A DNA stretch of 60,677 bases, the filler included, from Nemertoderma westbladi (taxonomy: Eukaryota; Animalia; Xenacoelomorpha): assembly GCA_032718475.1 (NCBI GenBank). It is 3 parts of 3 records of this genome, joined end to end, with 100 filler letters (N's around TTAATTAATTAA, not from the genome) between each part and the next. Parts side by side here need not be neighbours in the genome. Positions count along the whole stretch, not along the records: positions 1 to 26,291 come from JAUCBJ010007096.1; 2 more parts are not named here. One strand, written 5' to 3'. Of this stretch, positions 1,850 through 52,656 are shown piece by piece (positions within the stretch are counted from its first letter, which is position 1; each line of letters begins with the position of its first letter). The notes below the pieces were generated by a model that saw nothing but the letters and a program-made list of their open reading frames with translations, made no database searches and was not told where the DNA came from. A program made the position numbers and the translations under genes.

Positions 1850-4800
1850 TAGACTGGGCCAAATCAGGTCACTTCATCCAAGTTTGTTTAAAGTTTTACA
1901 AAAGTTGTGTATGATTATGAGGAACATAACCATGAAAAAAAAAAAAAAATTTTCATGTCTGACGGTGGTTACATTGGTTACCATGGTAACCAATTGTAGC
2001 GATGGTGCGGGCACCAAAAAAATGGCTCAGAACTATGATTTCTTGAACTGTTATTAACCTGGTGAGTTCGTTTTAGTAGCAAACGTTGTAGAATTGAGAG
2101 ATGTACAAGAGTTGATGTGGTTGCAAGAGCTGTGACAAACATAAGTTCCTTTTGAATAAAAAAAACAGTTATTTCACCCGAAATCCTTGTCTCCACCAAT
2201 ATTTTCCCAGCTGTAGCTCCGCCAGTGATTTCTACTTTACAGCTGCATGCAGTTAGACTACTGAATACTGCAATTTTGGTTTCAGGCTTACTGCAGTATG
2301 CGTACTGCGTACTGGCAATATCTGACATTTCATTCTGTAAATACAGGATCGTACAAAGTCTGAACCTTCCTCATCCTACTGTACTCTTACTTAGTATGGT
2401 AACTGCAATGCCCGATTTCCTTACACTAGGCTTACATAAATACAGTATCCAGTATCCCATGACGGATTTGGACTGATCAATCACTGATGTCAGTGTCATA
2501 TCAGTATAGCGCCACTATACACTATAGACCATATAGCAGTACCGGTATCAGCCTTAAAAACCCTGAGGCCTACCTATCCTACCAAAGCAAAATAGGCCGA
2601 AGCCTGTTGGGCAAAACAACGTGTTCCTGACAGCTTATGTTCACCTGAGCCTATGTACTATATACTGTACTGTACAGTGTACACCTAAGCCAATGTAGGC
2701 CTAATAACCTATGAATATTTAAATTGTTCAATATAATCATTGTAATGAATACGAAAGCAAAGACCGTACTTTGGCTGGTCAATAAGTCACCACCACTATT
2801 CCAGGAGCCTGGTAATCATGGATTTCATGGTTGTTATCCACCAACTGGAGAAGAAGTGTTGCTACAGTTCCATGGCTACCATCACCATCTTCAGGAAGCC
2901 ACGAATCTACAATCCAGTGTGCGGGATTCTGTCAAGTTGGTTGTAGAAGATATCCAGCAATGGTGGGGAAGAACTGGAATTGAAATTAAATCATGGCCAG
3001 CTTTGGAGAGCATGGTGAATGGAGATATAGATAAATTAAAGCTCCTGAAGAAATGGCGGAATAAAGAGACTGAACCTGAGATAAAGAGGAGAGAGGATTT
3101 CTTGTTGAAACTTAGAAATACATTTTGGGTGGTACAACCAAGCTATGAAAAAGAACTATCACGATTACATGCAACAACAACAGACAAGCGGAAACTAGAG
3201 GACTGGATGTATCTGGAAGGGGTGAGAGGGGGGAGCAGAACTGCAACTTTGGGTGCATTAGATGTGCAACTGAGAAAGCGCCAGAAGCGTAGGCTGTTGA
3301 CTGAACAGTCTGAAGCTGAAAGAAGACGTGCTGGGGAAGATGTATCATTTGCCACTGCTTCCGAGAAGGTTGGTGACAATGATTCAGACAAAAGTGATGA
3401 TGATACTACCTACACTCTACCTCTTCCAGGTCCCTCCTCAAAGAAGATGAAGAAAAAGGAAGGAATTCCACAGGCAGCATGCCTGATTGCAGATAAGTAC
3501 AGCATATCAAACCGAGCAATCACGGAACTGGCTGCAGCTTTCCATAAAGCAGATGGTAAATCTCTTGAAGAATACTGTCTTTCTGTCAACACAGCAGGGA
3601 GAAGAAGATCTTCAATTAGAGTTGGCGCTGCACAGGCTATTGTACAATATCAGCTTGGAGGAGAAAACGAGAAAATATTTGCCTTACACTGGGATGGAAA
3701 AATAATAAAGTCATTAACCCATGTTGGGAAAAGCCCAGAGACAGTGGCTGTCATCTTGACTGGAACAGATGGTCAGGAAGTGCTGCTGTCTATTGTGGGG
3801 TTAGATGGTAGGCCAAATGCTGAAAATGAGGCTTCAAAGATCATGCAGGTCCTCAATGACTATCATATTGACACCTCACGGATTGGTGCTCTCATATTCG
3901 ACACAACATCAGTTAACTCGGGGTACAAGCAGGGTGTTGTTAAAAGATTGGAGTCAGAATTTGGTAGGGCCCTCCTTCAGCTGGCTTGCAGACACCACAT
4001 ATATGAGTTGATTGTGAAAGCATCAAGTGTCATTGTCTATGGAGAAAGCTCTTCACCAAAGGAGGGGATGTTTGACCCGCTTATCCAACATTGGGATACC
4101 ATAGACAAGTGTAACTTGGCCTTGGTAAATGTGACAAAACGGAACAGGGTGCTCACTGGTCTTGTGGAGACAACTACTTCATTTCTTCATACCTGGCTGG
4201 GAAACAGCACCAAACAATCGTTGAGACACGATTACCTAGAGCTAGCTAAACTAGCCCTCCTATTTTTAGGTGGAACTGTTCCTAGTGGGTGGCCAGACAT
4301 CACAATAAAAGACCCAGGCGCATACCATCATGCAAGATGGATGTCCAAGGCATTGTACACACTCAAGATAGCCTTGTTACGATCTGAACTCCACGATGTC
4401 TACACAACTGACGAGCTCGAATCAATCACCAGCCTAGCTGTATTCATATCAGTATTCTACACTAAAGCCTGGCTGACTTCTACCTCTGCTGCAGATGCCC
4501 CTCAGAACGACCTTGATTTAATGAAGATATTCGTCAAGACTGAGGCTAGCATCTCAAAAAATCCAGAACAGTGGCCAGTGAACTTCAGCTCACTTGTCAG
4601 TGCTGCTCGCAATAAGTTGGAAAACCACTTGTGGTATTTATCTGAACGCCTTGTAACTTTATCTCTCTTCAGTGACAGGGTACCGATATCTTCAAAGTCA
4701 ACTATCAGGAAGGCACTTCTAAGGGTCCAGGGTGTCGAACCACAAAATAAGCTCCAAGAGATGCCAGCCTCCTATCGTTTTGAGAGTAAGTCCCTCAAGG

Positions 4801-5704
4801 ACTTTGTTGGGCCTGATTCGTGGTCCCTGTTCCCTCTACTTGGCATTGATCCTGGCTTTGTCAAACTACCTGTGGAGCAGTGGGTTACATGCAATTCGTA
4901 TCTAGCAGGAAAAGCAGTGGTTGACAAGTTGCCAGTTGTGAACGATGCTGCAGAGCGTGCATTAGGGCTAGCCACAGATTTGAACACAGCTAAGGCTCCC
5001 AAAACTGATGTACAGCTACAGGCCCTCTACAAGGTAGTAAAAGGGGTTAGACAGAAGCTCCATGGACTCTCGACATCATCAGAAACTGTAACAAAGAAGT
5101 CATTGAGTGTTGTCGCATATGAATGGGTTTGATCTAACTCTTTGAAAGTCTTCACCAATTGATGAAACTCTAAGTGATTTGATTTTTAATATATGGTCTT
5201 AATAATTGGTGTTTGTTTGCTCTCAATTTGGTTTTTTGCTCTTAATACTAAATATTAATTGTTCTTTATTTGTATTTAAATTTGATGTAATATGCTGTGC
5301 TGTATTTGAATATTGTTAATTTTTTGAATGACTTCGATCACTTTGAAAAGTGACAATAATTCCCCATAGATACATTAGATATGTGTTGGAAGTGGGTTTC
5401 TTCAATCAAAAAGTAAGCAATATGTATAGGGATCCAATCTACCTTGTTTATCATCCAATTCTGCAACTTTTGGTGACAAAGTGAACTCTGGCGGGCAACT
5501 AACACTTGATAAATTGTAATTTTAGTGGGAATTTCAATAGGCCATTTGTTGTTACCATGGTAACAGCTGTAACCACCGTTAGACATCAATATTTTTCGAA
5601 ATTTTTTTCATTCTTGTGTCACTCATACTCATGCACAACTTTTGTGACACTTTAAGCTATTAGCCTTCAAAAATTAAAAAAGGTCCAAAATTTGGCCCAG
5701 TCTA
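1850..5704 (+). mobile_element. Complete hAT-superfamily (hATm-type) DNA transposon
   Basis: Perfect 15-bp TIR TAGACTGGGCCAAAT (1850-1864 / 5690-5704). 8-bp TSD TTCATCAC at 1842-1849 and 5705-5712. Imperfect subterminal inverted similarity over about 140 bp. Confidence 0.95.
2745..5132 (+). CDS. hATm-type DDE transposase (about 795 aa from the first ATG at 2745)
   Basis: Uninterrupted ORF with LHWDGK (D1), FDTTSVNSG (D2), CRHH, HHARW and VNDAAER (E) motifs. Confidence 0.9.
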   Translation: MNTKAKTVLWLVNKSPPLFQEPGNHGFHGCYPPTGEEVLLQFHGYHHHLQEATNLQSSVRDSVKLVVEDIQQWWGRTGIEIKSWPALESMVNGDIDKLKLLKKWRNKETEPEIKRREDFLLKLRNTFWVVQPSYEKELSRLHATTTDKRKLEDWMYLEGVRGGSRTATLGALDVQLRKRQKRRLLTEQSEAERRRAGEDVSFATASEKVGDNDSDKSDDDTTYTLPLPGPSSKKMKKKEGIPQAACLIADKYSISNRAITELAAAFHKADGKSLEEYCLSVNTAGRRRSSIRVGAAQAIVQYQLGGENEKIFALHWDGKIIKSLTHVGKSPETVAVILTGTDGQEVLLSIVGLDGRPNAENEASKIMQVLNDYHIDTSRIGALIFDTTSVNSGYKQGVVKRLESEFGRALLQLACRHHIYELIVKASSVIVYGESSSPKEGMFDPLIQHWDTIDKCNLALVNVTKRNRVLTGLVETTTSFLHTWLGNSTKQSLRHDYLELAKLALLFLGGTVPSGWPDITIKDPGAYHHARWMSKALYTLKIALLRSELHDVYTTDELESITSLAVFISVFYTKAWLTSTSAADAPQNDLDLMKIFVKTEASISKNPEQWPVNFSSLVSAARNKLENHLWYLSERLVTLSLFSDRVPISSKSTIRKALLRVQGVEPQNKLQEMPASYRFESKSLKDFVGPDSWSLFPLLGIDPGFVKLPVEQWVTCNSYLAGKAVVDKLPVVNDAAERALGLATDLNTAKAPKTDVQLQALYKVVKGVRQKLHGLSTSSETVTKKSLSVVAYEWV

Positions 5705-5712
5705 TTCATCAC

Positions 5713-6337
5713 GTACCTTATTGTTATACCGCTCTACCACTTCATATAATTCATCGTCATAAGTCAATTGTTTGTTCTTTTGACTGATAAGGTTACACAG
5801 GTTAACTTGGTTTAACCAAGTTTGGTTCTCAGTGAGGAGTTCAATGGTATTTTCCTCGTCATATAAATTGTGAATATCGTCATTATCTGAGGAGTATGGA
5901 GTATCTTCCATTCTTCCATCAACCATCAGTATCTTCCATCATCACTTATATCTTCCTCCCACTCATTTACCTGATGGACTTGTTCGTTTGGAAGTCTTTC
6001 CTGTAAAGTCCTGTGGGAAGGACCAGTGAAGTACCAACCTACTCTTGTTCTTCCCACGTAAGTCTGGAGTGGTCACGGTCAAGCAGGCCGTTTTTCTATT
6101 GTCTCAAGCGCCTCGTGCGCATTTTGGCCAAACAATATCTGTACCCCTGGATAATCAGTACTGAATCTAGGTATGTTGTATTGCTGGGTAAAATGATCAT
6201 CATCCCAGTTGAAAGGCTCCACTTGGCTAGTAGCAAAGTTCTTTATCGCCACCATCTTAACTGACCTTACACTATTTTCTCCTAGTTCATCCTGGGGAGT
6301 GGACAATGAACCCACATAATAATCTGTGGATACCGTG
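5713..6337 (-). pseudogene. BEL/Pao pol, upstream part (protease C-terminal region); same element as 1-1849
   Basis: VQILFGQNA ... RTRVGWYFTGP resembles the BEL LLIG.D...T.LGW..SGP region. It contains stops and a frameshift, and joins 1849 once the hAT insertion and one TSD are removed. Confidence 0.8.
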
Positions 6338-7232
6338 AGTAGTAGGAGAAACATAGACCTGAGCGTACTCCTCCCTAGCCTGGGCTACGGGCTGCATCTC
6401 GGAGGGCTATTAAAAACGTGCTAAATCGCGATGTTTAATGACCATCTGTCACCATCAATATTGATTTGTGTCGATGCCTTCAACCAATCGTTGCTTATCG
6501 CCTACGCGTAGCCTAACCTCACGATGCCTGCCTTACTCGATAGCTGTTACCAACCGTGAGTATTGATTCGTGTTGTTGCATCAACCAACCATCGCATATT
6601 CATCTTCGCGTAACCTAACTTCACGATGCATGGCTAGCCCCCACTACGCTATTATATTATATCGATTGCCAACTCACCACCGCTAGCCTCGGCTACTCCT
6701 CGACGGCTGTCGCCAAACCAATCCAACCAACCAAGCAGCCTACCAGTCCAACGCTATGATACGTGAAATTCCGCCACGTTCCAGCTACACGTATACGAAC
6801 ATTTCCATAGTTACTCAACCTAACCTAACCAATCCCACAGCATCTGTGTCATATTGAAAGGCTACCACCACCACCACTAACATTATACTGTGCGTTTTTA
6901 TAATAATAATTATTGATTATTATTACACACAACCCTATGATTCATATTCTTTCACGTATTTCCTATCCACGCAATCAACCAGCCAGCTATTCATCCACGT
7001 TGCTCCCCATCTCTTTTCTTATTCGTTGATGATTATGACACGTACCATCTCTTCTTCGTTGACTATGCCACATCGCAAATTTATATATATATAAGTGAAT
7101 GTTTTTAATAAAATTCATCACTTGTAATCTTCATGGTAATATATTGATGCCATATCTAATTTTTTTTGTTCTCACTCTGAAATTGTGTTTTTTCCTTAAT
7201 AATTTATACATTATCTTACTCGTTGTATATTC

Positions 7233-7396
7233 GTTGGTCGGAAAACGACACCACATAAAATGATACTGATTCCAGCATTGGGTATCGACTCAAAAACGAA
7301 AATCTGAGCTACGTGTCTCGCCCGATCTTTGTTTTTGAGTCGATACCTAATGTCGAACTCAGCATCATTTTTCTCTGGTGTCGTCTTCCGAGCAAC
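7233..7396. repeat. Imperfect inverted repeat (about 70-bp arms, short loop)
   Basis: GTCGGAAAACGACACCA...GGTATCGACTCAAAAAC pairs with GTTTTTGAGTCGATACC...TGGTGTCGTCTTCCGA. Confidence 0.9.
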
Positions 7397-7576
7397 ACAA
7401 TTTTAGAGTGAGAACTCTGGTGTCAATTTATTACAGCGATACGGTTTAAAATTTATCACTTGTAATATTTTTCGTATTTATTATTATTATTATGGCCTTA
7501 ACGCAAAAAACCGGAGCAACAAATAGCTGGAAATTTACTTACAATAAATATACTTGTTCACAGCAAGTATTTTATT

Positions 7577-8545
7577 GTGGAATCTCAGGAGGACAACGAA
7601 TCAATTTGTTTTTCCCATCAAGATACCCGCTATTTGTTAGACATTCTAGAAACAACCAACAACCAACATCAATCCAGACCAGCAATTATACCAGGTAGGA
7701 TATATCCCACTCTTCGTTTTGCGCGGGGAAATTTGAATATTTCCATCAACCCCACATCGGGTGATGTTTACGTTCAGAAACAAGGCAAATGTAAAGTTCT
7801 CAACAAAGCTTTTACTGAAGTTCTAATTCAATACAGAGGGAAATTATTGCAATTTCTCTCTCCACCGCTAGAGATTATTAGCGATCAATTCTACATTGAA
7901 TTATCAAATCCAGAGTTTATTGGATTTGTAACAGCTTTTAAAGGAACCAACTATGTTGGCTTATGGAAAATCAGCCTCAGATACACTGATAGTGTTGGTT
8001 TTAACTATTATACGGGTTTCAATTTGTCAAAACAGGAACTAACCGTTTTGTTGCGAGAGTGGGACAACCAAGTCAATGAAACAGACAAGCATCTTTTTGA
8101 TAAAAATATCATTCAATTATCAGACAGGCTCAAAATGATTAAAACCAATAATAAAAAAATTATTATCACCAACACCGATAATTCTACTGAAGTAGGTGCC
8201 GGCGGAAATTCTATCGAGTTGCATTACTTGAATGATAAAGCCCATATTAGTTTTCTCAAAGAATCGATGGATGGTGTTTCTCTTACTGAAGCCCATGTTG
8301 ACGGTTTTGTCCTTTTGGATAAACCTAAAGCGTTCGTAGAGATCCCATCACCTAATCCAGATGTTGAAGAGAGTTGCTCTCAACCGCAACAGGTCTTTCC
8401 TGAAATATTACCTCGGAAGCCAAGATCATCGAGTAAATTTACCAACGCATCACCTGCAAAGAAACAGAAAGTTGTCAGTAACCCAGTTCTAGTAGAGCCT
8501 GTTACTAATTCTCCATGGAAACCAGATTATTATCCTAACATGTAA
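7577..8545 (+). CDS. Polinton PC4-like ssDNA-binding/coactivator protein
   Basis: FVTAFKGTNYVGLWK...GFNLSKQELTVL resembles the PC4 core V..FKG...IDIR...GISL..EQW..L. The C-tail is basic and NLS-like (PAKKQK). The true start is probably ATG 7492, with a 1-bp indel in the A-run at 7505-7510. Confidence 0.6.
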   Translation: MESQEDNESICFSHQDTRYLLDILETTNNQHQSRPAIIPGRIYPTLRFARGNLNISINPTSGDVYVQKQGKCKVLNKAFTEVLIQYRGKLLQFLSPPLEIISDQFYIELSNPEFIGFVTAFKGTNYVGLWKISLRYTDSVGFNYYTGFNLSKQELTVLLREWDNQVNETDKHLFDKNIIQLSDRLKMIKTNNKKIIITNTDNSTEVGAGGNSIELHYLNDKAHISFLKESMDGVSLTEAHVDGFVLLDKPKAFVEIPSPNPDVEESCSQPQQVFPEILPRKPRSSSKFTNASPAKKQKVVSNPVLVEPVTNSPWKPDYYPNM

Positions 8546-8731
8546 GCCTAATCATAAGTTAAACTCTTTGCGGTTTCCAATAGTCATAAGCGATTGGTGA
8601 TTGGTTTAAAATTATTTCCCTCGCTAGCATATAAATGTTTAGATGTATTCAATATCATATCATTTCATTTTATTTTAATCTTTGGAGATATTTTATTATT
8701 ATTATTATTATTTATCTAAACAAACTTCAAC

Positions 8732-11700
8732 ATGGATAAAATAACAATATGTTGTTCATTCTGTCATATGAATGTAACTAGACATAATTATTTACGCCAC
8801 CTACGGTCACATTTTGAAAGTTATTCTTGTTTAAAGTGTCATGTCGTGACTTCATGCAGCGAAATTTGTAAACGACATGAATCGACTACTGGTTGTAAAG
8901 AAATGGAGTTCCGCACCTATCAATTGACTTGTTCTACCTGTAATAAAGAGTATACATATGACAATTATTTACGACACGATTGTCACTTGAAATGTTACTA
9001 CACAAGAAAGCGTAAATCTCCGCAACATAAAAATATATTATCTAGAAAAAACTTAAGGGTGGCTCTTGGTACAGGCGCAACAATTTTTACGCGGGAACAA
9101 GAAGCTCACGATAATCGTCTTGTAATTTATGTCCACGACCTCCCAACTTCTAGAGATTATCCCGATGTAGAAACAGCAGTAACGCAAATTCGAGGTAATA
9201 TTCTTCAGTTAATATTAGATAGATTGAAAGAAATGAATGTTCTTAGACTGTGGTTAGGTCTAAATGTATTAATGTACAGGTCACATTTTTCAGAAGGTGA
9301 GCAATTGGAAACCTTTTATTTTAATTCTTCCGGTGGTGCTATTAATACTGTAGATTCGCCGCAAAGTTTTGACACATGGTTTGAGTATGTGCTGGGGAAT
9401 ATATTACAAAAAATAGCCATCTTTAACACACGTGGTTCTGGGTGGCGTATTAGATCTTTATTAAGGGTTGAAATTAAATTAGCTGAATCTAAGTGTAGGT
9501 CGTTACTATATAAGGGGCATGGGTATATGGAATTACCTAAAGCTCTATCAGGTAAACAGTGTGTTATAAATGTACAATCGGCTGATAATGACTGTTTTAA
9601 ATGGGCAATTATATCTGCAAAATTTAGTAGCAAAGTGAAAAACAACAAACAGCGTACTTCATCGTACAAAAATTATATGACTCATTTCATTTTTGACAAC
9701 GGGAACAAAGATTATCCAACAGAGTGGCAGTTAGCAATTAAACTTTTTGAAAAACAAAATTCAAAATATATAATTAATTTACTATGTTGGAATAACGACA
9801 ACAAACGCACCCGGTATCTATATTAAGACAACCTCCGTTTAGTAAAATTACACCTGATAAACAGTTATTAAATATATTACTTGTAGTAAAAAATAACAAT
9901 GTACCTAAACTGAATCATTATGTTTGCATAACTAACTTGAATCGATTGCTGAATACGAGAGCACTTCATATCAGGAATAGGAAATATTGCGAAAGGTGTT
10001 TGGCTCATTTTTTTCGAGCGGAAGTTCTTCATCGACACCGTCTCGCCTGCTACCAAGGAAGAAGTCAGCGCGAGAAACTACCTAATAAAAAAAGAACACA
10101 CATTAGTTTTACAAATTTAGATAGAACCTTATCCCCATTGTTTGTCACCTACTTTGATATAGAATGTATCTTACAACCGTCAGTTAATAATCAAATTATA
10201 CAGGAGCATATACCGTGTGCTGTGAGTTATTTAATTGTTCCCAATACTGAATTAATTGATGCTCCAAAATGTCATTTGAAAACATTCGTAAAGTCAAATA
10301 ATAATAATTGTATTCAAGATTTCTTAGATTCATTATATACTGATTTAACTGAATTATGTTGTTGGTCAGAAATATACACACATAAAACTATGTCATTTAC
10401 TAATATTGATTTTGTAAATTTTGAACAAGCAAAATTTTGTTTTTATTGTAATGTTACTTTAAATAATAATGTTGGGAAAAACAGACACCATTCACATATT
10501 ACAGGTAAATATATTGCAGCAGCCTGTAATAGTTGTAACCGAAGTTTATCATTGAAACGATACCTGTATGTACTTTGCGGGCACAATTCCAACAATTACG
10601 ATATACATTGTATATTACAAAGCGGATTTAGAGATAAGAAATACACAGATTGGGATATAAAGGTTATACCGAGAAATACAGAACGATATATTTCACTGAG
10701 TGCCTTTATCCCAATTAAAAACACTTCTAAGAAAATTGAGTTACGTTTCTTAGACACATATCAATTTTTAAGCTTTTCTTTAAGTAATTTAGTTGAGTGT
10801 TCAACAAAGGATGTAGCCAGTCATGATATAAGCTCAATTTTACCTATTACTCTACAAGAAATGAAATATTTTTATCCAAACTTGAATAACTCAACGATTA
10901 AATGGAAAGGAGTATTTCCATACGAGTACTTGACAGATATAAATAAATTTAATGATACTGGTTTGCCGTCTATAAATAATTTTTTTAGTAACTAAAGTCA
11001 AAAAACATGCACAATTGAAGATTATAGGTTTGCGGGAATATCATGGGTAGAATTCGACTGTGTGAATCTCAAAGATTATCTTTTAGCCTATTTAAAACTC
11101 GATGTTTGTTTGCTTGCCGATATATTTGAGAATTTTAGGAATGTTTGTAAACAAAATTACGATTTAGAAGCGGTTTTTTACTGTAGTATCGCGTCATTTA
11201 CCTATGATTGCGCGCTAAAATATAATAAATGTAAAATAGAATTAATAAAGGATTATCAGACATATAGAGATTTTGAAAAATCAATTAGGGGTGGTGTTTC
11301 ATTTTGTCGAAAACATTATATAGAATCAAATATACCAGGTACAAGTACATATGATTCTACTAAGGAAGAATGCCATATTTTTAATATTGATTTCAACTCT
11401 TTATATTCTGGGAATATAAGTAAAAAACTACCCACCTCACAATTCAAAGAAGTAAGTATTAAACATTTAGAGAATGCAATACCAGAAAAACTAATCGAGT
11501 ACTTGGTAGATTTAGACATTGAGGGATCTACTGGATATTTTTTAATATGTGATTTAAATTATCCCAAGGCTATTCACGATCAAACATTACAATTACCGTT
11601 AGCCCCCGAGCATTTAAGTATAAATGAATCAATGCTTTCACCTTATATGCGGGAACAATTTAATAACTTGTCAATACAAAGAGATACCTCCCGTAAATAT

Positions 11701-12789
11701 AGAATGTCTATACCAAAACTCATGCTGACACAATTTGATAAAGAGTTTTATCATTTACATTTGAAACTGTTAAAATTTTATAAAAAACATGGATTAATTG
11801 TTACTAAACTACATAAATTATATTCTTTTCAACAAGAATTTGTATTTAAAAATTACATCGATTTTAATATTAATCAAAGGCGACTGGCAGAAAGTTACAT
11901 TGAAACAGCTGTCGCGAAATTGCTCAATAATTCGCTGTTTGGCAAATCAATAGAAAAGATAAGAGATCGATGTAACTTTCGTATCGCAAATAGCAACGAT
12001 AAATGCGATCAATTGGTAAATCGTATTAATCATGAACAATTTATAATATACAATAATACACTATCGGGACATTTATTAGTGAAAGACTCTGTAACTCTCG
12101 ATAAGCCTATATTTATTGGTAGCACTGTGTTGGACTTGGCTAAATTGGATATGTATGATCTGTATTACAATAAATTGCTACCTATTGAGAAAGAATTAAA
12201 CTGCCGTATTGAAATTGCTGCATCAGACACTGACTCTTTGATAGGTTGTTACTATAATACATCGCAGAATAATTTTTTAAAAGCATTAATTAAAAATAAT
12301 ATTTTAGATACATCCAATTACCCTAAGGATCACCCACTCTACAGCGATAAAAATAAATCCAGACTCTATTACTGTAAAGACGAACTAGCCTCACGTGAAA
12401 TTAAACAAGCAGTATTTTTAAGACCAAAATTATATTCAATTTTGGAATGGAATAATAAAAATATTCGTAGAGCAAAAGGTATTACAAGAGCTGTTGTGGA
12501 AACGAATATTACACATGAAGAATATTTAAAAGCATATAACTCAAATGAAGAAATAAAAAAAAACATACACAGATTTCAATCTAAATTACATCGTATTTAT
12601 ACCTTAAAGCAAAATAAATTTGCACTCAGTAGCTTTGATGATAAACTTTATTGGCTTAATAAAAATCAATCGCTTCCTTGGGGGCACTATAAAACAAACC
12701 TCAAAAAACCTATAAAAATATCAAATATACCAAGTTATGAAGAACCAAAAGACGACGGTGTTGATGATGAATTATCAAATAGTAAATAA
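8732..12789 (+). pseudogene. Protein-primed family B DNA polymerase (pPolB), disrupted
   Basis: N-terminal C2H2-like fingers, GSGW, DNDCFKWAI/NHYVCI, ExoI FDIEC, an endonuclease-VII-like insert (CFYC..RHHSHITGKYIAAACNSCN), ExoII HNSNNYD, KGVFPYEY, ExoIII YLKLDV, and polymerase motifs DFNSLY, KLLNNSLFGK, DTDS, PKLY, AKGI. One 1-bp frameshift near 9823 and one in-frame TAA at 10993-10995 split it into three ORFs. Confidence 0.95.
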
Positions 12790-13318
12790 AAATATATGTT
12801 GTAAGCAGATTATTTATGGACTTAATTTGAAAGAATTAAAAAAGCAATTGAATGGTAAAATTGTACTCAAACCTAATCAGTTTATATATAAGGTATTTGG
12901 TGCAACCATATTAATGTTTACAAATGGACGAATAACAATTCTCGGTAGAAAATATAATTTTAATAAAGTGAAAAAACATATATTAGAAAAAACAAACATT
13001 AATTTGATTTTTAAATCAATCAATTTGTGTACTTATATTTTTAGTATCGATACTGTAATTTATAGGTTACTTATAAATAATATCGGGTTTTATGTTATAT
13101 TTGATAATGTTAAACTAGAAATTTCATACGACCCTGAAATATTCAATAACTGTAAAGTCAGAATAAATAATATTGTTGTTGTTTGCTGTTTCTACACTGG
13201 TAAATGTACATTAATGTGTTCCCCGTTTAAATTTCATATATATTATTCTATTTTCAACAAGCTGGTTAATAATTTATTATTGTTTGGTATGGGGGTTTTT
13301 GATGTAAAATATAATTAG
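12737..13318 (+). CDS. Divergent TATA-box-binding protein (TBP)-like protein
   Basis: Two-repeat TBP pattern: LNLKEL...ATILMFTNGRITILG (cf. ATALIFSSGKMVCTG) and ISYDPEIF...VVCCFYTGKCTLM (cf. SYEPELFPGL...VLLIFVSGKVVLTG). Size matches a TBP core. Overlaps the pPolB stop. Confidence 0.72.
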   Translation: MKNQKTTVLMMNYQIVNKNICCKQIIYGLNLKELKKQLNGKIVLKPNQFIYKVFGATILMFTNGRITILGRKYNFNKVKKHILEKTNINLIFKSINLCTYIFSIDTVIYRLLINNIGFYVIFDNVKLEISYDPEIFNNCKVRINNIVVVCCFYTGKCTLMCSPFKFHIYYSIFNKLVNNLLLFGMGVFDVKYN

Positions 13319-13985
13319 TACGAATGAAATTTATTGTTGTTGCTGTTTGGTGGTGGTGGAGATTTTTACTGTAAAATATATATATTAAATTGAAGGGAGA
13401 AGAAATTTATGAATATTTTTTTAAAATCAACAACTAGTTTGAGGGGAAATTAACTTCAGTAGAGTGATTGTTTCTTGTAACACTCAAGTAGGCATAGTAT
13501 ACTCAGCAGCCGCGGCTAGCTAGCTAGCTAGCTTGGCATTGTTGCTCACGAGTGAGCCACAATAGCGCATCTGTTACTTATGAGAGTGAGTGTGTGTGGT
13601 GGGCATCGCTAAGCTCGGTGAGAAAAGTTTAGGGCTATGTGCTGGTATTCATAGTCAAAGACGATGCCATCCTATCTGTTAATAGTCTGTATACCGGTAC
13701 ATATCATTAAAACATCCGCTATGCATCTCCCTACATTCAGAATAGAACAATGAATAGAGCATATATCGCTAATCCGCATGGGAAAGGTTTATGCTGTGCA
13801 TTTTGTTAACTATGTGAATTTTGTAATGTACACATCTGCGACCCTCTACAAAAATATATATAAACTCAATTTTTCTAACAGTGAACTATAATTTTGTTAA
13901 CCAAAATAAAAAAAAAAACAAATACCGGTATACTCTAGCTTAAACTATACTACTGTACTATATATAACCAACCTGTAACAGTAAA

Positions 13986-14375
13986 ATGACAGCAAGTGTG
14001 ACAAGTTGTTCTATGAAATTCGATCTTGAAGCTGGTGATGTATACCTTCAAGCGGCAAATATAGTCGACATTAATATGAAACTTGAAGATGGTAAATTCC
14101 ATATGGAAATTAAAAATAACAGACTAGGAAACGAAATAACAGATTTTAAAACAATGAAAAATTTCACATTAAATGTGAGAATTCAACCCAGCGATAGCGA
14201 AATTCATACAGGCGGTATAATTTCTCAAGAAAATTGGGAGGATGGTATAACAAATCCAATGTTACCCCCAAACAACCCATGGAGCGATGATGATAATGAT
14301 GTTGTTGTGACACATTCACAACCGCAACCGGAACCGGAACCGCAGCAACAGCAACTAATTTATAAATGGTACTAG
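13986..14375 (+). CDS. Polinton orphan ORF (129 aa, acidic and Pro/Gln-rich C-terminus)
   Basis: AAAATG start, TATA-like TATATATAAA about 125 bp upstream, AATAAA downstream. No recognisable domain. Confidence 0.55.
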   Translation: MTASVTSCSMKFDLEAGDVYLQAANIVDINMKLEDGKFHMEIKNNRLGNEITDFKTMKNFTLNVRIQPSDSEIHTGGIISQENWEDGITNPMLPPNNPWSDDDNDVVVTHSQPQPEPEPQQQQLIYKWY

Positions 14376-14624
14376 TAATGAGAAGAGATTTATCGATACT
14401 GACTAACTGAACTGACTGACTGACCTATTAAATGTTAGTTACTGTCTTAATTAGCCCCTACCGGTACCTACTAAATTTGTCAAATTGTGACCAGTGTTCC
14501 TGTCTGATTGTAACAGTTGGAGAGAACTTCAAATTTCAACTCATTAAATGTTATCAGTCTATTTTATATCTAATTTAAAAAAAAAAGCGAATACATAAAT
14601 AAACTAACTATGTTTTATATAGGC

Positions 14625-14960
14625 CCCCGTCAACATAGAGTGAATGTTAGTAACAGAGAATGTGGTGGATTTTATATAGGCTTAGTTAGGTATACTGCGG
14701 GCCACACCTATTGTATCCGCGTGGAGCCATTATATGACTGGTTGAATGATGGGGTTCCTGACTAAAAGTTAACGGTATAGCATACAACATAAAGTGAATG
14801 TTGAAAGTTAGTAACAGAGAGTGCGAGGGGATTTTATAGGTCCAATAGCGCTACCGGTACCTAACTACACCTATTGTGTCTGTGAGGTAGTCAGCTTTCA
14901 GTTGAGGAGTAGTCATTAGGCCTATATGCCTAACCAAATGAAGGTGTACCTTACCTATCC
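14625..14960. repeat. Degenerate tandem duplication (unit about 160 bp)
   Basis: CAACATA(G/A)AGTGAATGTT..AGTAACAGAGA..ACACCTATTGT recurs at about 14631 and 14785. Confidence 0.7.
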
Positions 14961-15619
14961 GTAAACCATATTGGGTCAACATGCGAAAAAGGGCCCCGCA
15001 TAAAGTTAACTATAGCTGTATAGGCTTACCTATGCAACAGTAGCACGCAGTAATGTAGATTAGACCAATTAAAGTTGTAAACAGAAAATTGGAAGCATTC
15101 AAGTGTAATAGCCTAATCCTTAAATGAAAGAAACCAGCATGCTCTTGCGCTATCCAAGTATACAGGTACAAGAGTGCTACGGTGCCGGTACCAGTAGGCC
15201 TATTGTTAGGTGAGCCTCCTCTAATGCTGCATTCACGAACCCCCATGTCGACTTAATTTAATTTTATTATTAGTAAGTACGGTACCGGTAACGCTAAAGC
15301 TCTGTGGTTGCTGTCGGGGCCATTCTGCCGTTCTACAGTTTAGCGTTGTTGGTATATGTAGTAAAATCAGCTAGCTACTAGTAGTTAAACTCTGATACAA
15401 CAGCCGGCTACCGGTAGGTACGGTGTGTTTGTGAGTGTAAACTTAAGCCCTACACCTTTAGTCAAACTGAGATATAAAAAATAGATTTTAATGTTTTTTT
15501 ATTTTTATTGACATTAAAACAATTATATTATCCCATCACATTACATGCTTAGAGTAAACCTACAGTACATCTTCCACCGCAGTTATTTCTTTCTGTTTAT
15601 CATCATCATCAGTCGCAGT

Positions 15620-15761
15620 TGAACAAGTGTTATTTCTAATTATAGTTTATTAATTCAGAAATGATACATATCTATATATTAATTTAGTATACCGGTATTT
15701 TAGTACAGCAGTATATATGTGATGACTTAGGCCTAAGGCCTACCTAGTACAGTATGTAATA
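15620..15761 (-). repeat. Gypsy 3' LTR
   Basis: Identical to 21151-21292; reads TA...CA on the minus strand. Confidence 0.97.
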
Positions 15762-16034
15762 TCCCCCCATGACAACGATATTGCTGTTTCACGAAATGGG
15801 ACAGCTGTTGAGATGTCAGAATTGTTTTATCCTGAGATCATAGGAGAGTCTGTAAAATATCGATTATAAATTTGATCCTAAATGTAAATTATGTCATGGT
15901 GGGATCCATTAACAAAATGAACTATCTACTAAACTTTGGAATTTCACCCATCACCAAACTCTCTAAAATACATAGGCAAGGTACTAAGTATTGTATATGA
16001 TTATATCGCAGTTAGCAATAAACATGATTTAAAG

Positions 16035-19000
16035 TTATATATTTATAAACTTCCTAAAGTTTGAATTAGTGAAGATTCTGCTCTTCTGAGTAGATTTGAG
16101 AAGCTCAGCAGAAGATATTGTGTTGCTGCTGTTGATCCAAGCTTCATTCCCATGCAGCCTTTCAGGTGGAATCCCTGCATTTGATCTGGTAGATCTTCTC
16201 AGCCCGGGTTCATTCATTGTATTTTTGGTTAGTGGTTGAGGCCTTGCCTGGGGAGGCTTGGCCTGTTTATCCTTGATAGGAGTAGGAGGTGTTTGTAATC
16301 CCGTGTTTGATGGTGATGTCAGTTTCGCCGGTGTTGATGGTTGATGTGATATGGTTACTGCACTGGGACTAGCTTCCCTAGCACTTTTCAAAGGTGACTG
16401 TAACTGATCACAGACTATTTTCGCCCGATTCACATCAGAGGGCATGACATGGGTAGGGCTATCCTCTTCCCTATCTTTAGGCATTGAATTGGCTGTAGGA
16501 GTGGCCTGCTGTTGATATTTGCTGTCATATGCGGTTTGAGGTAGTTGAGGTGGATCTTGGCATGCCTGATGATGTTTTGAGTCTATAGTGGCTGGGGTGT
16601 TAGCGGGTGTTCCCCAGTTAGGTACGACCATCCTTGTAGTTGGGTGTCCATAGTTAAAAGGATCTATTTTTCGCAGAAATCTTCTGTTCCGGAGGGTTAA
16701 TCTACGCGAACCCTCCAAACATACAACATATTGATCATTATCCCTAGTCTCCATGATTCGACCAGTGCGGTCCCACCTGGTGGGATTGTTTCCTGACTGA
16801 TTCTGGACCCGAACAATGTCACCCACCAGGAGGACAGGTAATTACTTGGATTTTGCATCTAGTTTTTCCCATTGTTTAGCAAGTCTGGTGCGGAGGGCAA
16901 TCTCCTTCTCATTCCAAGTGTCCTTCCATGTCTGATGCACCTGACTCTGTGGCCCAAATACCTGTTCATTTGGAGGTAGAGGGAGAGTATCCCTCAGGGT
17001 TTTGCCTAAGAGGACTTGAGCTGGCGACATGCCACTATCTTGCTCAGGTGTGTTTCTAAACTGCAACACACCACGTAGGAACTCATCTGTGTTCAGGTCA
17101 CTTGAGTCGCTGGTGTTGTCCCTAAGAAGCCTCTTCATAGACTTAACTGCCACCTCAGCCCTACCATTTGACTGTGCAAAGTATGCTGATGATTGCCTGT
17201 GTGCTACACCCCATCTCTTAAGAAAATCTGTAAATTCCTTAGCTGCGAACTCAGGGCCCCCATCACTCGAAATTTCTATTGGAACTCCATATGCTCCAAA
17301 AAGTAGTCGTAATGCCTGTGTGAGACCTTGGGATCCACAATTCTCATTCTTTCTTGTGATATGGAATATACTCGGCCAATTTGTGAATCTGTCAACAGTG
17401 ACCAAGTAGTAATTACCTTTGAGGTGGAAGTAGTCAGCGGCAATGGATTCAAATGGCATGGAAGGGGTTGTAGGCTCAGCAGGAGGCAAGCTTGACTGGC
17501 TGGGAGCAATAGAATCACATGTGGTGCATTTTGACCGGATAGTCTGTATATCTGAAGTAATCCCTGGCCAGAACACTGATGCCATAGCTCTACCTGTCAT
17601 TTGAGTTGTCCCCTGGTGTGCTCCATGAAGGTGTTCGCAGACCTCATCATGGAGGCTCGGTGGAATAACCACACGGTCTTTATACATTACAACACCGTCT
17701 GTGACAGATAAATCATCCCGGTATTTCCAGTACTGGATCAGCTGTGGGGACAGATTGCTTGCCCTCTCAGGGAAACCATTTTCTGCCATATCTATAAGCT
17801 GAAGAAGATGAATGTCTTTGTTTGTCTCATCTCTGACCCTTTCCCAAGTTACTGCCTTAAGCTTGTCTAAACCAGAACTGGCAGCGGCAATAATGGCATC
17901 CTCAATGTCATCTATTTCACGAATAACTCTGATGGTTGCTAGGCAATCATCTTCAATGCCTATGAGAGTTTCGTCAGCCTCTAAGTTGCTAGGGTTTCTC
18001 GATGTTGCATCAGGGGCAGGGATATTTTTCCCAGGTACATGGAAGATTCTGAATCTCCATGACATTGTTTTCTCCTTCAAGCTAAGAATTCTTCTGTTTG
18101 TTATCTCATCCAGTAACCTGTCACCAAGTATTTTGATAAGTGGTTTGTGGTCAGTCTGGATAATAAGATCTGCGCATCCCCATGTAAAGAACTTAGTATC
18201 CTCTAGTGACCATGCAACAGCGAGACATTCACCCTCTATAGGCCAGTAGTTTTCCTCAGCCTTCTTGAGGAACCGTGAACCTGCTAGTGTTATCCTCCAG
18301 CCACTTGGACAACATGTAGTAATGTCAGAATTACATTCACAGTATTTCTGGTAAAGGAAGTAACCAATCCCCTTCTTGCACCAGTCTGGGCTAAGGCAGG
18401 TCTTCCTCGATGGGTCAAATATTTCTACACCCTCTATGATAGCCTGGCTTATCTCCAACTTAGACTGAATAAAAGAAGCCTCCAGGTCATCATTCCAGTG
18501 GAATCTTGTCTTTGGACTGAGGAGAGGCTTGAATGGGGACATAAGGCCTGTGAGACGACCATAGTGTGAGACCTGGTTGACCAGGCCAAACCATGCACGA
18601 ACATCAGTTATGTTGGTAGGTCGTGGGAAATTCTTGATTGAGTCAATGTACTTGGGGAGTGGCTTGACATTGTTATTGGTAAGAAGGAATCCTGCAAACT
18701 CCACAGACTTTTGGCAGAATTGGAATTTCTTGGGATTTAGGATTATCCCATGTTTCCCCACGAGGTCCAGGTAGTCCATAATCCTTCTCCAATGTGTCTC
18801 CAAGTCATTGTCCCATAAAATTGTGTCATCGACACATTTTGACTTTCTTTCTACATCAGCTATGAGCTTATCATATCGCATGTTGTACCCATCACCTCTG
18901 GAAAGGTACCCCTGGGGGGCAACATTGTAATGGTATCGACCATTCTCTGTGATAAAGGTTGTGAGGTGTCGGTCCTCTTCCTTTAATGGGACAGAGTGAT

Positions 19001-21053
19001 ATCCATTCCAGGCATCAGTTACTGTTCTGTATGTATTGCTGGGTACAATCCGTGCCTGTTTGAATGGTGGAATCAAGTGGTATGATTCTCTGATGCAAAC
19101 TTTGTTAAGTGGTCTGAGGTCAATGGTCCTTCGAGGTGAACCATCCGGCTTCGGCACAACATGCATTCTGTGACACCAGGTGGTAGGTGTCCCTGGCTTT
19201 ACTTTAGACAAAACTCCTAGAGCCTCATCCTGATCAAGCAGAGCCTGGACCTCCTCTCTCCAATGGATTGGCACAGTTGCAGCAGTGTGCACTGCATGTG
19301 GAGTGGCCTCTGGGTCAATATGTATTGAAATAGGTGGGCCAGACATCATGGGCAGACGTTGGTGCGGACACCTATTGAATGTGGATGCAGAATAGTGTTC
19401 CAATAGCCATTGACGCATCTTAGTGATATTTTCCTCCCTGGCAGGGAAGGGAAATTCCTTTGGTTGGGGTGGTGGCTGTTGGTGATAAGGGCATCCACAT
19501 GGAGCTGTTCCATTCAAACCAATACTACCTTTGGCATTGTCACTGACTCCACATACTGATGCAGACCCAACCTTAGGAAAATCATTTCCAATTATCTGGA
19601 GTTGTTGCATAGCCTGTTTACTCAGGTAGAACAGAGATGTTGAGTCAGTTACATATGCCATTATTGCTGTTTGGAGTTTTTTACCACTATCAGGGTTGAC
19701 TCCGGATATGCGTAGGAAGATGGCTCCTAGTATATGGATCTCCTCATGGTTGATAGCCCGTAGCCTATTCTTTACATGTGCTAAGTCTTTCTTCTTGAGT
19801 CCTAGGTGGTGTAGCATCTTTAGACCAATGAGGTTGGATTGGGCACCTGTGTCAGTTATAGCTTCAATTGATGTGGGCCTTATCTTAGGGAAAGGAAGCC
19901 GTAGGTGGCTATAGTCAGATTGGTCAGTAGTCACTATCAAATTTATCCGTGGCTGGGAACTAGCTGCTGCATTTTTCCAACCATCGGTACCATCGAAAAT
20001 AAAATTGTCCAAACCCACTGTAGGATGGCCTTCTCTAGTTGAGGCCAGTTCAAACTTCATTGACGACATGAAGTTGAAAAAAGCATTGTTTTCTGGTATG
20101 GTTGAATTGGATTTTGTGCTCATTGTCATAGCTTTCCGACTATTGGACTGTCACCAGCAGGCTTTGCATTTGGGAAAGGTAAGGAGTTTGTCATCTTTCC
20201 CCTTGCTGCCCAAGCGTATTTTGTGTTTGAGAAACTCTTATCCACATTCCTCACACTTTGCTTTCAATAGGAGTCTTTTATCATTTGGATGAATCTTTTT
20301 GAAACTGAATGTGGCTGCTTGGTTTGATTCATGGCCTGGTTGAGGGGCTATAGATCTGATGGCACGCTCCTTTGTTTCAATTAAGGCGATTGTGTCGACC
20401 AGACTCATTTCATCCATTTTGTCAGTCCCAAGGACTTCAAGCTTGATATCTTCATCTGCCAGTCCTGTTATAACGACTAATTTAATGATAGCTTGACTGT
20501 AGTCGACCTTCAGATTACAAACGCCACATGTCTGAGTGAATCCACAGGTCTGGGCCTTTCCCCTAACCCTGGCAGCAAACACACGAATTCGTTCACCATG
20601 GTCTTGTCGCAGTGACAGTAATTCTGTCTGTTGGACAGAAATGGCCACAGAGACAACTGCCAGCTTTTTAATGGCTGCCAATAATTCAGCCTCTGACTTT
20701 GTGTGTGCAGTGGGATCATCCCTATGGACATCTGACTTGAGGTCACTATCACAGCAGTTTAACAGGTGGACTGGAAGGGAAGCTGGGTTAATAGTTGTTG
20801 CCGACTTGAATATTTCCCACTCCCGCTCAAATGCATTCCAGCTATCCTCATAGATTCCCCCCTTAACCTTAGGTGCCTCAATCTTGGGAGCCTTTTGCTT
20901 TGCCGCTGGTGCGGTAGCCTCAGCGTGATCGGCATCAGGTGGGTGGGTGGACTGTAGGTGGTGCTGGAGCATTACTGCCCCGGCAGCGTCAGCGACGTCC
21001 GGGGTCCTAAACCCACAGTTGGCGATGTGGCAACGAATAGTCGGCATTTTCAA
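16035..21053 (-). pseudogene. Gypsy gag-pol, one reading frame with three in-frame stops
   Basis: Gag with C/H motifs, protease DTGAQS, RT CVDD, RNase H (TDHKPL), integrase H..H..C..C / ADYF / SDGGPEF / NGRAE, C-terminal LRRSTR. Stops at 20238-20240, 20151-20153 and 16842-16844 all lie in the same frame. Confidence 0.93.
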
Positions 21054-21150
21054 TTAATTTTGAAACATTTCAGTGGTTCAAGTGCTTACTTCTAGGTCTA
21101 GCCTGAACATATAGCATTTCAAATCACCATATCATTCATTATATGTATCA

Positions 21151-21292
21151 TGAACAAGTGTTATTTCTAATTATAGTTTATTAATTCAGAAATGATACAT
21201 ATCTATATATTAATTTAGTATACCGGTATTTTAGTACAGCAGTATATATGTGATGACTTAGGCCTAAGGCCTACCTAGTACAGTATGTAATA
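21151..21292 (-). repeat. Gypsy 5' LTR
   Basis: Identical to 15620-15761. Confidence 0.97.
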
Positions 21293-21297
21293 GCAGT

Positions 21298-21851
21298 TAA
21301 ACGCTTTCTCATGAAAAAATGTAGCACCTCATATCCCCCAACGCGTTTTGCTGAGCAGTATCGCAGACAGTTAGTTATCCCTTATGTTTAAGTGGAACGC
21401 GCATTTACTTTCTACTGTAGTGAATCGGTCGTGAAACCGACAAGGCGTTAAATAATCGTGATATTGCTTATATATTCCCAATTTCTCCACCGAATTTGGC
21501 TCGAGAACATCGAGTTGGGAAACTAACATTGCCTGCTTCAGCAACCCAAATACATGAATATTTTTTTTATATTTTAAATGTCTCTTCATATATTTTTTAA
21601 AGTCATCTTGAGAAATGTCCCCGTAGTCCCAGGGCAAGTGAGAAGTCATATCCCGTAAATTGTTTACGTGGGCTGCATCTAAAGCTGATAACTTAATATT
21701 AGACGGGCCTTTAATTAAAAACGTCTTTACATTAGTTTTGGTATAATTAGAATCGAATATAGCAAATTCTTTAAATACTACCGGATACTCTTTATTGTCT
21801 ATCTTATAATATTGAAAATCAACAAAAATAATATTATCCCGTACTATACAT
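21298..21851 (-). pseudogene. Polinton DEDD-exonuclease-like accessory gene; its last codons lie at 15560-15619, beyond the Gypsy insertion
   Basis: NIIFVDFQYY..VVFKEFAI..FLIKGP..HLPWDYGDI..VFGLLK..C..H...C matches a gene type I recognise from invertebrate Polintons. There is a 1-bp frameshift just after ATG 21851 and a TAAC duplication near 21371. The corrected frame runs across the GCAGT TSD to TAG at 15560-15562. Confidence 0.65.
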
Positions 21852-21940
21852 TACGTTAGGAGGAAATTATTTGTATTTGTAAAATTAGGATCTGATTTAG
21901 TTGCGGCAAGATAAGGAGTATTTCATTTTCGTTATTAAAC

Positions 21941-52383: not shown

Positions 52384-52509
52384 TATCGCCCTTTGTTTCT
52401 AATTGAACGTTTGATAAAGGTAATATTGTACTACAGTAGTAGGACATTTAGAAGATGGGGTTGTGTTGTGGCTCTTAACTTAATCAAAATTCATCTCTAT
52501 CTTGGCGGC

Positions 52510-52656
52510 AGGGGGAAAATCGATGCACATAACATGTGATTACTCCTAAAAAATAAATCTGTATCATGTTCTATTGACTTTCGTTTATTGTTTTGGTTAG
52601 AATAACGTGCCACTGTAAGCTAATCCTTTCCCTTACTTGATAATTTAACATTGAGG
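52510..52656. repeat. Partial MITE copy, inverted relative to 56013-56160
   Basis: About 147 bp align with the reverse complement of 56013-56160 (e.g. AATAACGTGCCACTGTAA, AATTTAACATTGAGG). Confidence 0.8.

What the first reader, a model, noticed from the sequence alone, without database searches (positions are those of the whole stretch)
7492..13318. Polinton/Maverick carrying a TBP-like gene and a PC4-like gene on either side of its DNA polymerase
Seen: a co-oriented, intronless cassette of PC4-like ORF, pPolB and a 193-aa ORF with both TBP repeats, the last overlapping the polymerase stop. Known: the Polinton core is pPolB, rve integrase, packaging ATPase, protease and jelly-roll capsids. 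TBP homologs are typical of large DNA viruses (Nucleocytoviricota, nimaviruses) rather than Polintons, and cellular PC4 is an ssDNA-binding coactivator of TBP-dependent initiation. Inference: this lineage may encode its own promoter-recognition module that redirects host Pol II, and I do not know of this as a described Polinton feature. PC4 could instead be just the replication SSB.
Basis: partly seen in the sequence, partly recalled or inferred. Interest (0 to 1): 0.88.

Follow-up and report, generated by a model that had tools for sequence, protein, structure and literature searches.

The report
Polinton lineage carries its own TBP
A decayed virus-like jumping element in an animal-like genome has, right behind its DNA polymerase gene, an intact and strongly altered gene for a TATA-binding protein that its closest relatives also carry, which likely lets these elements steer the host's transcription machinery to their own promoters; the proposed PC4 partner gene is only weakly supported.

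Summary
The TBP-like gene is real. It passes Pfam's TBP cut-off and scores 46 bits on a profile of relatives built without it (1,000 shuffles: at most 7). All listed Foldseek hits at E<0.001 are TBPs. Differences from a diverged copy fall mostly at third codon positions (19 of 30). The polymerase sits in a clade whose two long members both carry this TBP type, against 1 of 24 long loci outside. It is an old element gene, not a recent host capture.

The PC4 call is weak (one HMM test negative, profile alignment p about 0.01), and no relative examined has both genes, so a TBP+PC4 module is not supported.

This copy is decayed: polymerase and 5' ORF are broken, and no integrase, ATPase, protease, capsid or terminal repeats were found in the window.

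Most likely role (inferred): a viral TBP with changed base-reading residues and an intact acidic TFIIB-side loop that directs host Pol II to element promoters. My promoter test was inconclusive.

A 'TBP' label on such viruses is already in print (Starrett 2021, figure legend only), and this scan noted Polinton TBPs before in at least 6 other genomes.

The parts
12737..13318 (+). Intact TBP-like gene with two TBP repeats (193 aa from ATG 12737; likely start 12764/12767, about 184 aa). It overlaps the polymerase stop.
   Evidence: Pfam TBP 26.1 bits over cut-off; 45.9 bits on a profile built without it, shuffles at most 7.0; hhalign 96.6%; model pLDDT 74.7 and Foldseek hits to TBPs; synonymous excess against a diverged copy
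8732..12789 (+). [quoted passage not shown] Broken in this copy into three pieces (frame change near 9810, stop at 10993-10995).
   Evidence: ORFs; 1,611 homologues, best 43%; all three pieces match polymerases of related loci; tree
7492..8545 (+). 5' gene of unknown family, weakly PC4-like. ATG at 7492 is in a different frame from the long 7502-8545 frame (break near 7555). Pro/Lys-rich tail.
   Evidence: PC4 tests: negative; weakly positive
7925..8095 (+). Best PC4-like stretch (residues 142-198 of the long frame); a second marginal stretch follows at about residues 206-280
   Evidence: hhalign 52 columns in register, score 18.5, probability 2.4%; 1 of 156 whole-ORF shuffles as high; top of 23 window ORFs and above 92 ORFs of related loci
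7168..7416 (.). About 250-nt imperfect palindrome just upstream of the cassette; role unknown
   Evidence: inverted repeat; DNA fold -64.9 kcal/mol, z -13, 0 of 200 shuffles
13915..14511 (+). Segment with a 129-aa ORF (13986-14375) of no known family; one read contig skips it
   Evidence: joint 13915-14511 in run X1 and low summed contig depth in X1 and X3 but not in X4; no meaningful family hit
15620..21292 (-). LTR retrotransposon (gag, protease-RT-RNaseH-integrase) inserted into the repeat, with identical 142-nt LTRs and a 5-bp target duplication (15615-15619 / 21293-21297)
   Evidence: repeat D10; Pfam; sequence; contigs of runs X1 and X3 join 15605 to 21294
21371..21850 (-). 159-aa frame related to an ORF just downstream of pPolB in Polinton locus L078; no in-frame ATG. 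Looks DEDD-nuclease-like by recall only.
   Evidence: phmmer E 0.0065 among 865 ORFs; 27-30% identity; no meaningful Pfam, PHROG or PDB hit

Best explanation
This is a decayed, partial copy of a repeated Polinton-type element whose lineage has long carried its own divergent TATA-binding protein, which most likely acts as a viral initiation factor that would bind non-standard AT-rich boxes on the element's promoters and would recruit host TFIIB and RNA polymerase II. Shown: TBP fold (predicted model plus profile scores), intact frame under purifying selection, co-inheritance with one polymerase clade, presence in relatives with integrase and packaging genes. Seen in alignment: three of the four DNA-kinking phenylalanines (F52, F127, F143; the fourth, F40, is ambiguous), the first asparagine and the acidic loop of the second repeat (D123, E125) are kept, while other DNA-facing positions differ (yeast V71 to N, N159 to T, T124 to L, T215 to M, P191 to N). 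Inferred: DNA binding, changed specificity, TFIIB recruitment and an early-to-late switch. The 5' ORF, if PC4-like at all, is more likely a separate ssDNA-binding helper for the polymerase.
For: Fold and family. Selection: 19 of 30 listed differences to a diverged, gap-free copy are third positions (p 7e-4); 11 of 19 single-site codons are synonymous against 0.19 expected (p 2e-4); no stops. Linkage to the polymerase end in contigs of runs X3, X4 and X5. The polymerase falls in a 28-row clade (FastTree support 100) with TBP-bearing L028, L036 and L037. The window TBP's nearest rows are L028-type TBPs, and it shares their shortened first loop. 2 of 2 long loci in the clade carry TBP against 1 of 24 outside (Fisher p 0.009, loci not independent). 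L028 and L037 carry integrase and ATPase. A separate multi-copy Polinton family pairs TBP with a TFIIB-zinc-ribbon gene beside the capsid gene. In L028, CATAAAC lies upstream of 4 of 5 scored virion/integration genes. Precedent: KSHV ORF24 is a TBP mimic for late promoters (PMC12529657).
Against: No binding or expression data. No structural genes in this window, so no target promoters can be tested here. The promoter scan was inconclusive: L028 p 0.044 uncorrected among 21 loci, L037 and L071 showed nothing, and 4 of 18 TBP-less loci also reached p<0.05. The model is moderate (pTM 0.63, TM about 0.42-0.57 to TBPs) and was guided by an alignment of TBP-family sequences; the single-sequence fold failed. 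The window TBP is a long branch (2.87) and its grouping has support 94/92, below the starred mark; no eukaryotic host TBP was in the tree. Only 30 of 53 differences were listed, and that diverged contig does not reach the polymerase. No TFIIB-like gene was found in the window. 14 of 17 loci in the clade show no TBP, though all 14 are under 9 kb.
Confidence: 0.5

Rival explanations
1. Decoy or host shut-off factor: the TBP-like protein titrates host TBP partners (TFIIB, TAFs, Mot1, NC2, Brf1; partners recalled) or blocks host promoters, rather than activating element genes.
For: The acidic loop and fold are kept while many DNA-facing residues differ. No general late-promoter box emerged. The gene persists here without visible structural genes.
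Against: The phenylalanines matching F116, F190 and F207 are invariant or nearly so across 66 aligned sequences, which suggests DNA binding still matters. L028 shows a shared upstream box.
Confidence: 0.2
2. Structural DNA-bending role outside transcription: the protein binds AT-rich element ends or the upstream palindrome and helps protein-primed replication, packaging or integration targeting.
For: Here the gene overlaps the polymerase stop and in L036 and L037 it lies about 1 kb behind the polymerase. A long palindrome precedes the cassette.
Against: In L028 it lies 5.5 kb from the polymerase, next to the ATPase, and in the G016 family it is paired with a TFIIB-like gene, which points to transcription.
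Confidence: 0.12
3. One reading: TBP-like and PC4-like proteins form one element-encoded promoter-recognition and coactivator module.
For: Both flank the polymerase on one strand; weak PC4 signal; PC4-like genes do occur in three other pPolB loci, L031, L050 and L104.
Against: PC4 identity unproven. No co-occurrence: 0 of 5 TBP loci with PC4, 0 of 3 PC4 loci with TBP, and none of 92 ORFs in 16 clade loci is PC4-like.
Confidence: 0.08
4. Relic: a once-useful or passively carried gene that is now drifting in a non-autonomous repeat family.
For: This copy is decayed and interrupted; the protein is a very long branch and lacks the proline kept by most relatives.
Against: The frame is open in the window, no frame-shifting indel is listed among 4 runs, and divergence between subfamilies is mostly synonymous at single-site codons. 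This shows past selection; it does not show present activity.
Confidence: 0.1

Closest known systems
Polintons / Mavericks / adintoviruses and MELD viruses (Starrett et al. 2021, PMC8502044)
   Same: pPolB of the Polinton type; relatives carry rve integrase, packaging ATPase, protease and capsid genes. The Fig. [quoted passage not shown]
   Different: The passages I read give a label only, with no analysis, and the section is about non-animal datasets; I could not see which element bears the label. This locus lacks integrase, virion genes and TIRs within the window.
Cellular TBP (Pfam PF00352; human, yeast, plant, archaeal)
   Same: Two-repeat saddle fold in the model; equivalents of F116, F190, F207 and N69; acidic loop in the second repeat.
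   Different: Only 15-21% identity in structural alignments; first loop shortened; V71, T124, N159, P191 and T215 equivalents changed (yeast numbering mapped through archaeal TBPs, the motifs and Table 1, partly from recall).
Beta/gamma-herpesvirus vTBP (KSHV ORF24; PMC12529657)
   Same: A nuclear DNA virus without its own RNA polymerase uses a TBP mimic with conserved phenylalanines and asparagine substitutions on the DNA face.
   Different: ORF24 is a 752-aa multidomain protein, lacks the acidic TFIIB residues and works in a viral complex. This protein is a bare core of about 184 aa that keeps the acidic loop. No homology beyond the fold is claimed.
TBP-like factors of Nucleocytoviricota
   Same: Viral TBP fold; structural hits at E about 1e-4 to 1e-5; L101 shows a TBP next to an NCLDV capsid gene.
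   Different: Many of those viruses encode their own RNA polymerase (recalled); identities are 10-17%; the window protein groups with Polinton TBPs rather than L101.
PC4/Sub1 ssDNA-binding domain (PF02229)
   Same: One stretch aligns in register over 52 columns; PC4-like genes occur in other pPolB loci.
   Different: Below all family thresholds; lacks the usual D-I-R and P-T-K-K-G motifs seen in the fetched PC4 set; no structure obtained.

Membership tests
Polinton/Maverick (complete element) | [quoted passage not shown] | tested here: met
   broken in this copy
Polinton/Maverick (complete element) | Retrovirus-like (rve) integrase | tested here: not met
   Cluster HMM from 39 related integrases hits only the inserted LTR element's own integrase. 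Window only; no whole genome held.
Polinton/Maverick (complete element) | Packaging ATPase, maturation protease, major and minor capsid proteins | tested here: not met
   No hit at E<0.05 with 27 cluster HMMs built from 134 related loci; tblastn with ORFs of the first 100 loci also blank. They may lie in other copies.
Polinton/Maverick (complete element) | Terminal inverted repeats and 6-bp target duplication | tested here: not met
   No match between left (5401-15700) and right (21291-23400) flanks; both sides abut other transposons, so the ends may be lost.
TBP family (PF00352) | Two TBP repeats forming a saddle fold | tested here: met
TBP family (PF00352) | Four DNA-kinking phenylalanines | tested here: inconclusive
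   F52, F127 and F143 align with F116, F190 and F207; F40 may match F99, but the loop is shortened and relatives have L or M there.
TBP family (PF00352) | Acidic loop used for TFIIB contact | tested here: met
   YDPEIF with D123 and E125; sequence only, binding untested
TBP family (PF00352) | Binds TATA-like DNA and nucleates a preinitiation complex | not testable with these tools
   No assay; indirect promoter scan of relatives inconclusive
Recent capture of host TBP | High identity to eukaryotic TBP core | tested here: not met
   15-21% in Foldseek alignments; phmmer against PDB finds no TBP at E<=10
PC4/Sub1 (PF02229) | Family profile match | tested here: inconclusive
   Pfam none; own HMMs negative; hhalign p about 0.01
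PC4/Sub1 (PF02229) | Dimeric beta-sheet fold that binds ssDNA | not tested

The most novel reading that the evidence does not exclude
An old clade of Polintons runs a private transcription switch with a single minimal gene: a re-specified TBP core that keeps the host-TFIIB loop and reads an element-specific box (such as CATAAAC in L028), evolved independently of the herpesvirus TBP mimics. In this host the family may persist as a high-copy, capsid-less replication cassette (tandem PC4-like SSB, pPolB, TBP), so that many endogenous copies could supply an alternative TBP to host cells.
Probability: 0.3. Interest if true: 0.85.

Novelty: new variant of a known kind. Interest (0 to 1): 0.6.

Why it matters
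How Polintons time their virion genes without an RNA polymerase of their own is an open question. A bare TBP variant of about 184 aa, inherited with one polymerase clade and altered at DNA-facing positions, gives a small and direct handle: one protein, one binding-specificity assay, one TFIIB pull-down. If it works as inferred, small integrating DNA viruses reached the same solution as beta/gamma-herpesviruses with much less machinery, and these proteins would be natural examples of a TBP with changed specificity. The locus itself is a decayed copy, and the gene was already labelled in print, which limits the surprise.

Tried and rejected
TBP ORF as a single query found nothing: 0 of 114 word-sharing candidates, 0 at E<=0.001 among 1.84 billion representatives, no TBP in PDB by phmmer, no PHROG. 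Single-sequence folding failed (pLDDT 32.5). Relatives came only through polymerase-anchored loci. The Atlas does not hold the window's proteins; the homologue L028 returned TBP clusters.

PC4 tests that gave nothing: Pfam, PDB, PHROGs, BLAST against the L031 tandem PC4 (37), two-repeat HMM (72, 74), 14-sequence HMM (75), revised HMM (76), scans with the L031 PC4 of viral contigs and phages. A homodimer prediction of residues from 7868-8110 returned no answer and is not used either way. The four PC4-like repeats I saw by eye were only partly borne out: segments 1 and 2 were at shuffle level (50 and 21 of 100), segments 3 and 4 marginal (1 and 0 of 100).

Sequencing runs: no RNA holder listed. 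Summed contig depth is not a copy number, so 'many copies' rests on 13,345 variant contigs laid in run X1 over 18 kb against a few long contigs over the LTR insertion; X1 may be the window's own source.

The non-standard late-promoter box reported in earlier scan notes was seen only in L028 (1 of 3 TBP loci tested); the G016 family was only inspected by eye and showed no clear box. Canonical TATAWA was upstream of 0 of 18 late ORFs in TBP loci and 23 of 112 in TBP-less loci (p 0.04, not independent): a hint only. TATAAA hexamers at 12688 and 12711 upstream of the TBP gene are not counted as evidence: there are 16 on this strand of the AT-rich element.

The DEDD-nuclease label for 21371-21850 is recalled and got no database support. 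L101 turned out to be an NCLDV-type contig, not a Polinton. A 1,000-base-scale search for element ends failed.

Literature: nine searches. Only the Starrett paper and its preprint tied TBP to this group. Term searches in five Polinton papers found no TBP, TATA or PC4. Subscription papers, figures and bioRxiv supplements were not visible, so absence in print is not established.
Full report
Setting. The window is transposon-rich eukaryotic DNA, probably of an invertebrate animal (LINE, BEL/Pao and LTR elements, kinase and Na/Ca-exchanger exons; the animal assignment is inference). No whole genome is held. The AT-rich stretch with the finding lies between a DNA transposon with terminal repeats (1888-5655) and a BEL/Pao gag at 23393, and an LTR element is inserted at 15620-21292. 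Contigs from runs X1 and X3 join across that insertion.

Polymerase. The polymerase is real but broken: a frame change near 9810 and a stop at 10993-10995 split it into three pieces. The last piece finds 1,611 homologues among 7,985 candidates scored, best 43% identity, most listed ones with an EndoVII domain. Contigs of all four runs laid differ from the window by an indel at the 9809 break, and three of four at the 7555 break in the 5' gene, so these breaks are not shared by all copies; the stop was not among the rows shown.

TBP-like ORF: fold. ORF 12737-13318 passes Pfam's TBP cut-off (26.1 against 22.9 bits, two stretches) and each half hits TBP alone. It is too divergent for single-sequence searches. 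I fetched 134 polymerase-anchored loci and found TBP in 4 of 134: L028, L036, L037, L071. A profile of 29 such TBPs, built without the window protein, scores it 45.9 bits; 1,000 shuffles reach at most 7.0; hhalign gives 96.6%, E 5e-10. Folding with a 66-row alignment gave pLDDT 74.7 and pTM 0.63. Of 44 PDB matches at E<=0.001, all 39 listed are TBP chains or complexes that contain TBP, with TM 0.42-0.57 and 15-21% identity. The model was guided by a TBP-family alignment, so it is not independent of the profile result.

TBP-like ORF: history. Contigs of runs X3, X4 and X5 span the polymerase end and the TBP start. One X4 contig is a diverged copy (293 nt, 53 differences, no gaps). Of its 30 listed differences 19 are third, 7 first and 4 second codon positions (p 7e-4); 12 of 24 changed codons are synonymous, none is a stop, and 11 of 19 single-site codons are synonymous against 0.19 expected (p 2e-4). 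The other 23 differences were not shown. In a FastTree of 94 polymerase cores the window falls in a 28-row clade (support 100) that holds L028, L036 and L037; ten of the 94 rows were chosen as best hits of the window. Both loci of 12 kb or more in this clade carry TBP, against 1 of 24 such loci outside (p 0.009; loci are not independent). The other 14 loci in the clade are under 9 kb and show no TBP. In a 23-row TBP tree the window protein sits with L028-type TBPs (support 94/92, long branch 2.87), apart from archaeal, NCLDV and the L071/L180 type; no eukaryotic host TBP was available. A recent neutral capture of host TBP is therefore rejected.

A second type. One metagenome-assembled genome holds 41 TBP matches on many contigs. 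Two regions taken from it show a Polinton with capsid, protease, ATPase, integrase and polymerase pieces, where TBP is followed by a gene with a TFIIB zinc ribbon. No such gene was found in the window.

Residues. Mapped through archaeal TBPs onto yeast numbering (motifs, Table 1 of PMC12529657, partly recalled), the protein keeps N69, F116, F190, F207 and the acidic loop (D123, E125). F99 is ambiguous because the first loop is shortened, a trait shared with the L028 type. V71 is N (nearly invariant in the 66-row alignment), N159 is T, T124 is L, T215 is M and P191 is N. This suggests retained DNA kinking and TFIIB contact with changed base reading. KSHV ORF24, by contrast, lacks the acidic residues.

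Promoters. The window has no virion genes to test. In relatives, CATAAAC lies upstream of 4 of 5 scored late ORFs of L028 (p 0.044, uncorrected); L037 and L071 show no enriched 6-mer, and 4 of 18 TBP-less loci also reach p<0.05. The late-switch idea, which I took from earlier scan notes, is thus only partly supported by my own test.

PC4-like ORF. Family searches are blank. HMMs from fetched PC4 domains do not score it (0.5 bits; not listed). hhalign places residues 142-198 in register on the PC4 profile over 52 columns (probability 2.4%); 1 of 156 whole-ORF shuffles scores as high, it ranks first among 23 window ORFs and above 92 ORFs from 16 clade loci, and local alignment to the L050 PC4-like protein is matched by 56 of 5,000 shuffles. 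PC4-like genes do occur in pPolB loci L031, L050 and L104, but none of these shows TBP, and none of L028, L036, L037, L071 or L180 shows PC4. I put PC4-like ancestry at about 55% and a TBP+PC4 module under 10%.

Is it a Polinton? It has the polymerase and an ORF related to one in Polinton locus L078. HMMs for 27 gene clusters of related loci find no Polinton integrase, ATPase, protease or capsid in the window, and no terminal repeats were found. It is a Polinton-type replication cassette; whether the family has complete copies elsewhere is open.

Known work. PMC8502044 (passages, section 3.4 and a text search of one supplement) and its preprint 10.1101/697771 (passages) list 'TBP' in a figure legend for MELD viruses with adintovirus-like PolB; I did not see the figure. 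PMC12529657: abstract and two results sections. PMC10748475, PMC11161782, PMC8097293, 10.64898/2026.06.19.733378 and 10.64898/2026.10.13.758929: main-text term searches only, no TBP, TATA or PC4. PMC12220804: term search, nothing relevant. Supplements of preprints were closed and may bear on novelty. This scan has 82 earlier notes on Polinton TBPs in at least 6 other genomes and none on this sequence.

Verdict. A real, old, selected TBP gene of a Polinton lineage, in a decayed copy. Viral initiation factor is the best reading (0.5). PC4 is weak and the joint module unsupported. New variant of a known kind; interest 0.6.

Noticed in passing
L179, L180 and L149-L177 (handle G016): Multi-copy Polinton family with adjacent TBP and TFIIB-zinc-ribbon genes, head-to-head with the capsid gene; 41 TBP matches in one metagenome-assembled genome, some copies in tandem.
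   Followed up: partly
L028:13727-19004: CATAAAC upstream of the PLA2-like, ATPase, integrase, 155-aa and last (putative capsid) genes, but not of polymerase, KilA-N or TBP.
   Followed up: partly
L104:4863-5477, L144, L145, L147: PC4-like domains preceded by a hydrophobic, transmembrane-looking stretch; in L104 the frame overlaps the end of the pPolB gene.
   Followed up: no
L031:6229-6849, L050:12439-13191: Tandem two-repeat PC4 gene (L031) and a PC4 plus AT-hook gene (L050) in pPolB loci.
   Followed up: partly
L056:5447-6085: VLTF3-like late transcription factor in a Polinton without detected TBP: another route to late-gene control.
   Followed up: no
window 7168-7416: About 250-nt palindrome upstream of the cassette, between two short direct repeats (7109-7138, 7447-7476); could be a small inserted element or a cis site.
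   Followed up: partly
window 5702-6384 (-): Fragmented minus-strand frames that look coding and are covered by many contigs in runs X1, X3 and X4; no meaningful family hit.
   Followed up: partly
window 14515-15716 and 21126-21726: Heavily covered by contigs of runs X1 and X3 but barely by X4, while 13914-14514 shows the reverse: the repeat may be a composite of variants.
   Followed up: no
window 1888-5655: DNA transposon with about 100-nt terminal inverted repeats and an intact 795-aa ORF without Pfam hit, inserted next to a BEL/Pao pol fragment.
   Followed up: no
window 50929-55380: Three single-ORF host-like genes: sulfotransferase with an 11/14-aa repeat N-terminus, short-chain dehydrogenase and inositol monophosphatase.
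   Followed up: no
L031:4778-5221: Bcl-2 family gene next to a pPolB and the tandem PC4 gene.
   Followed up: no
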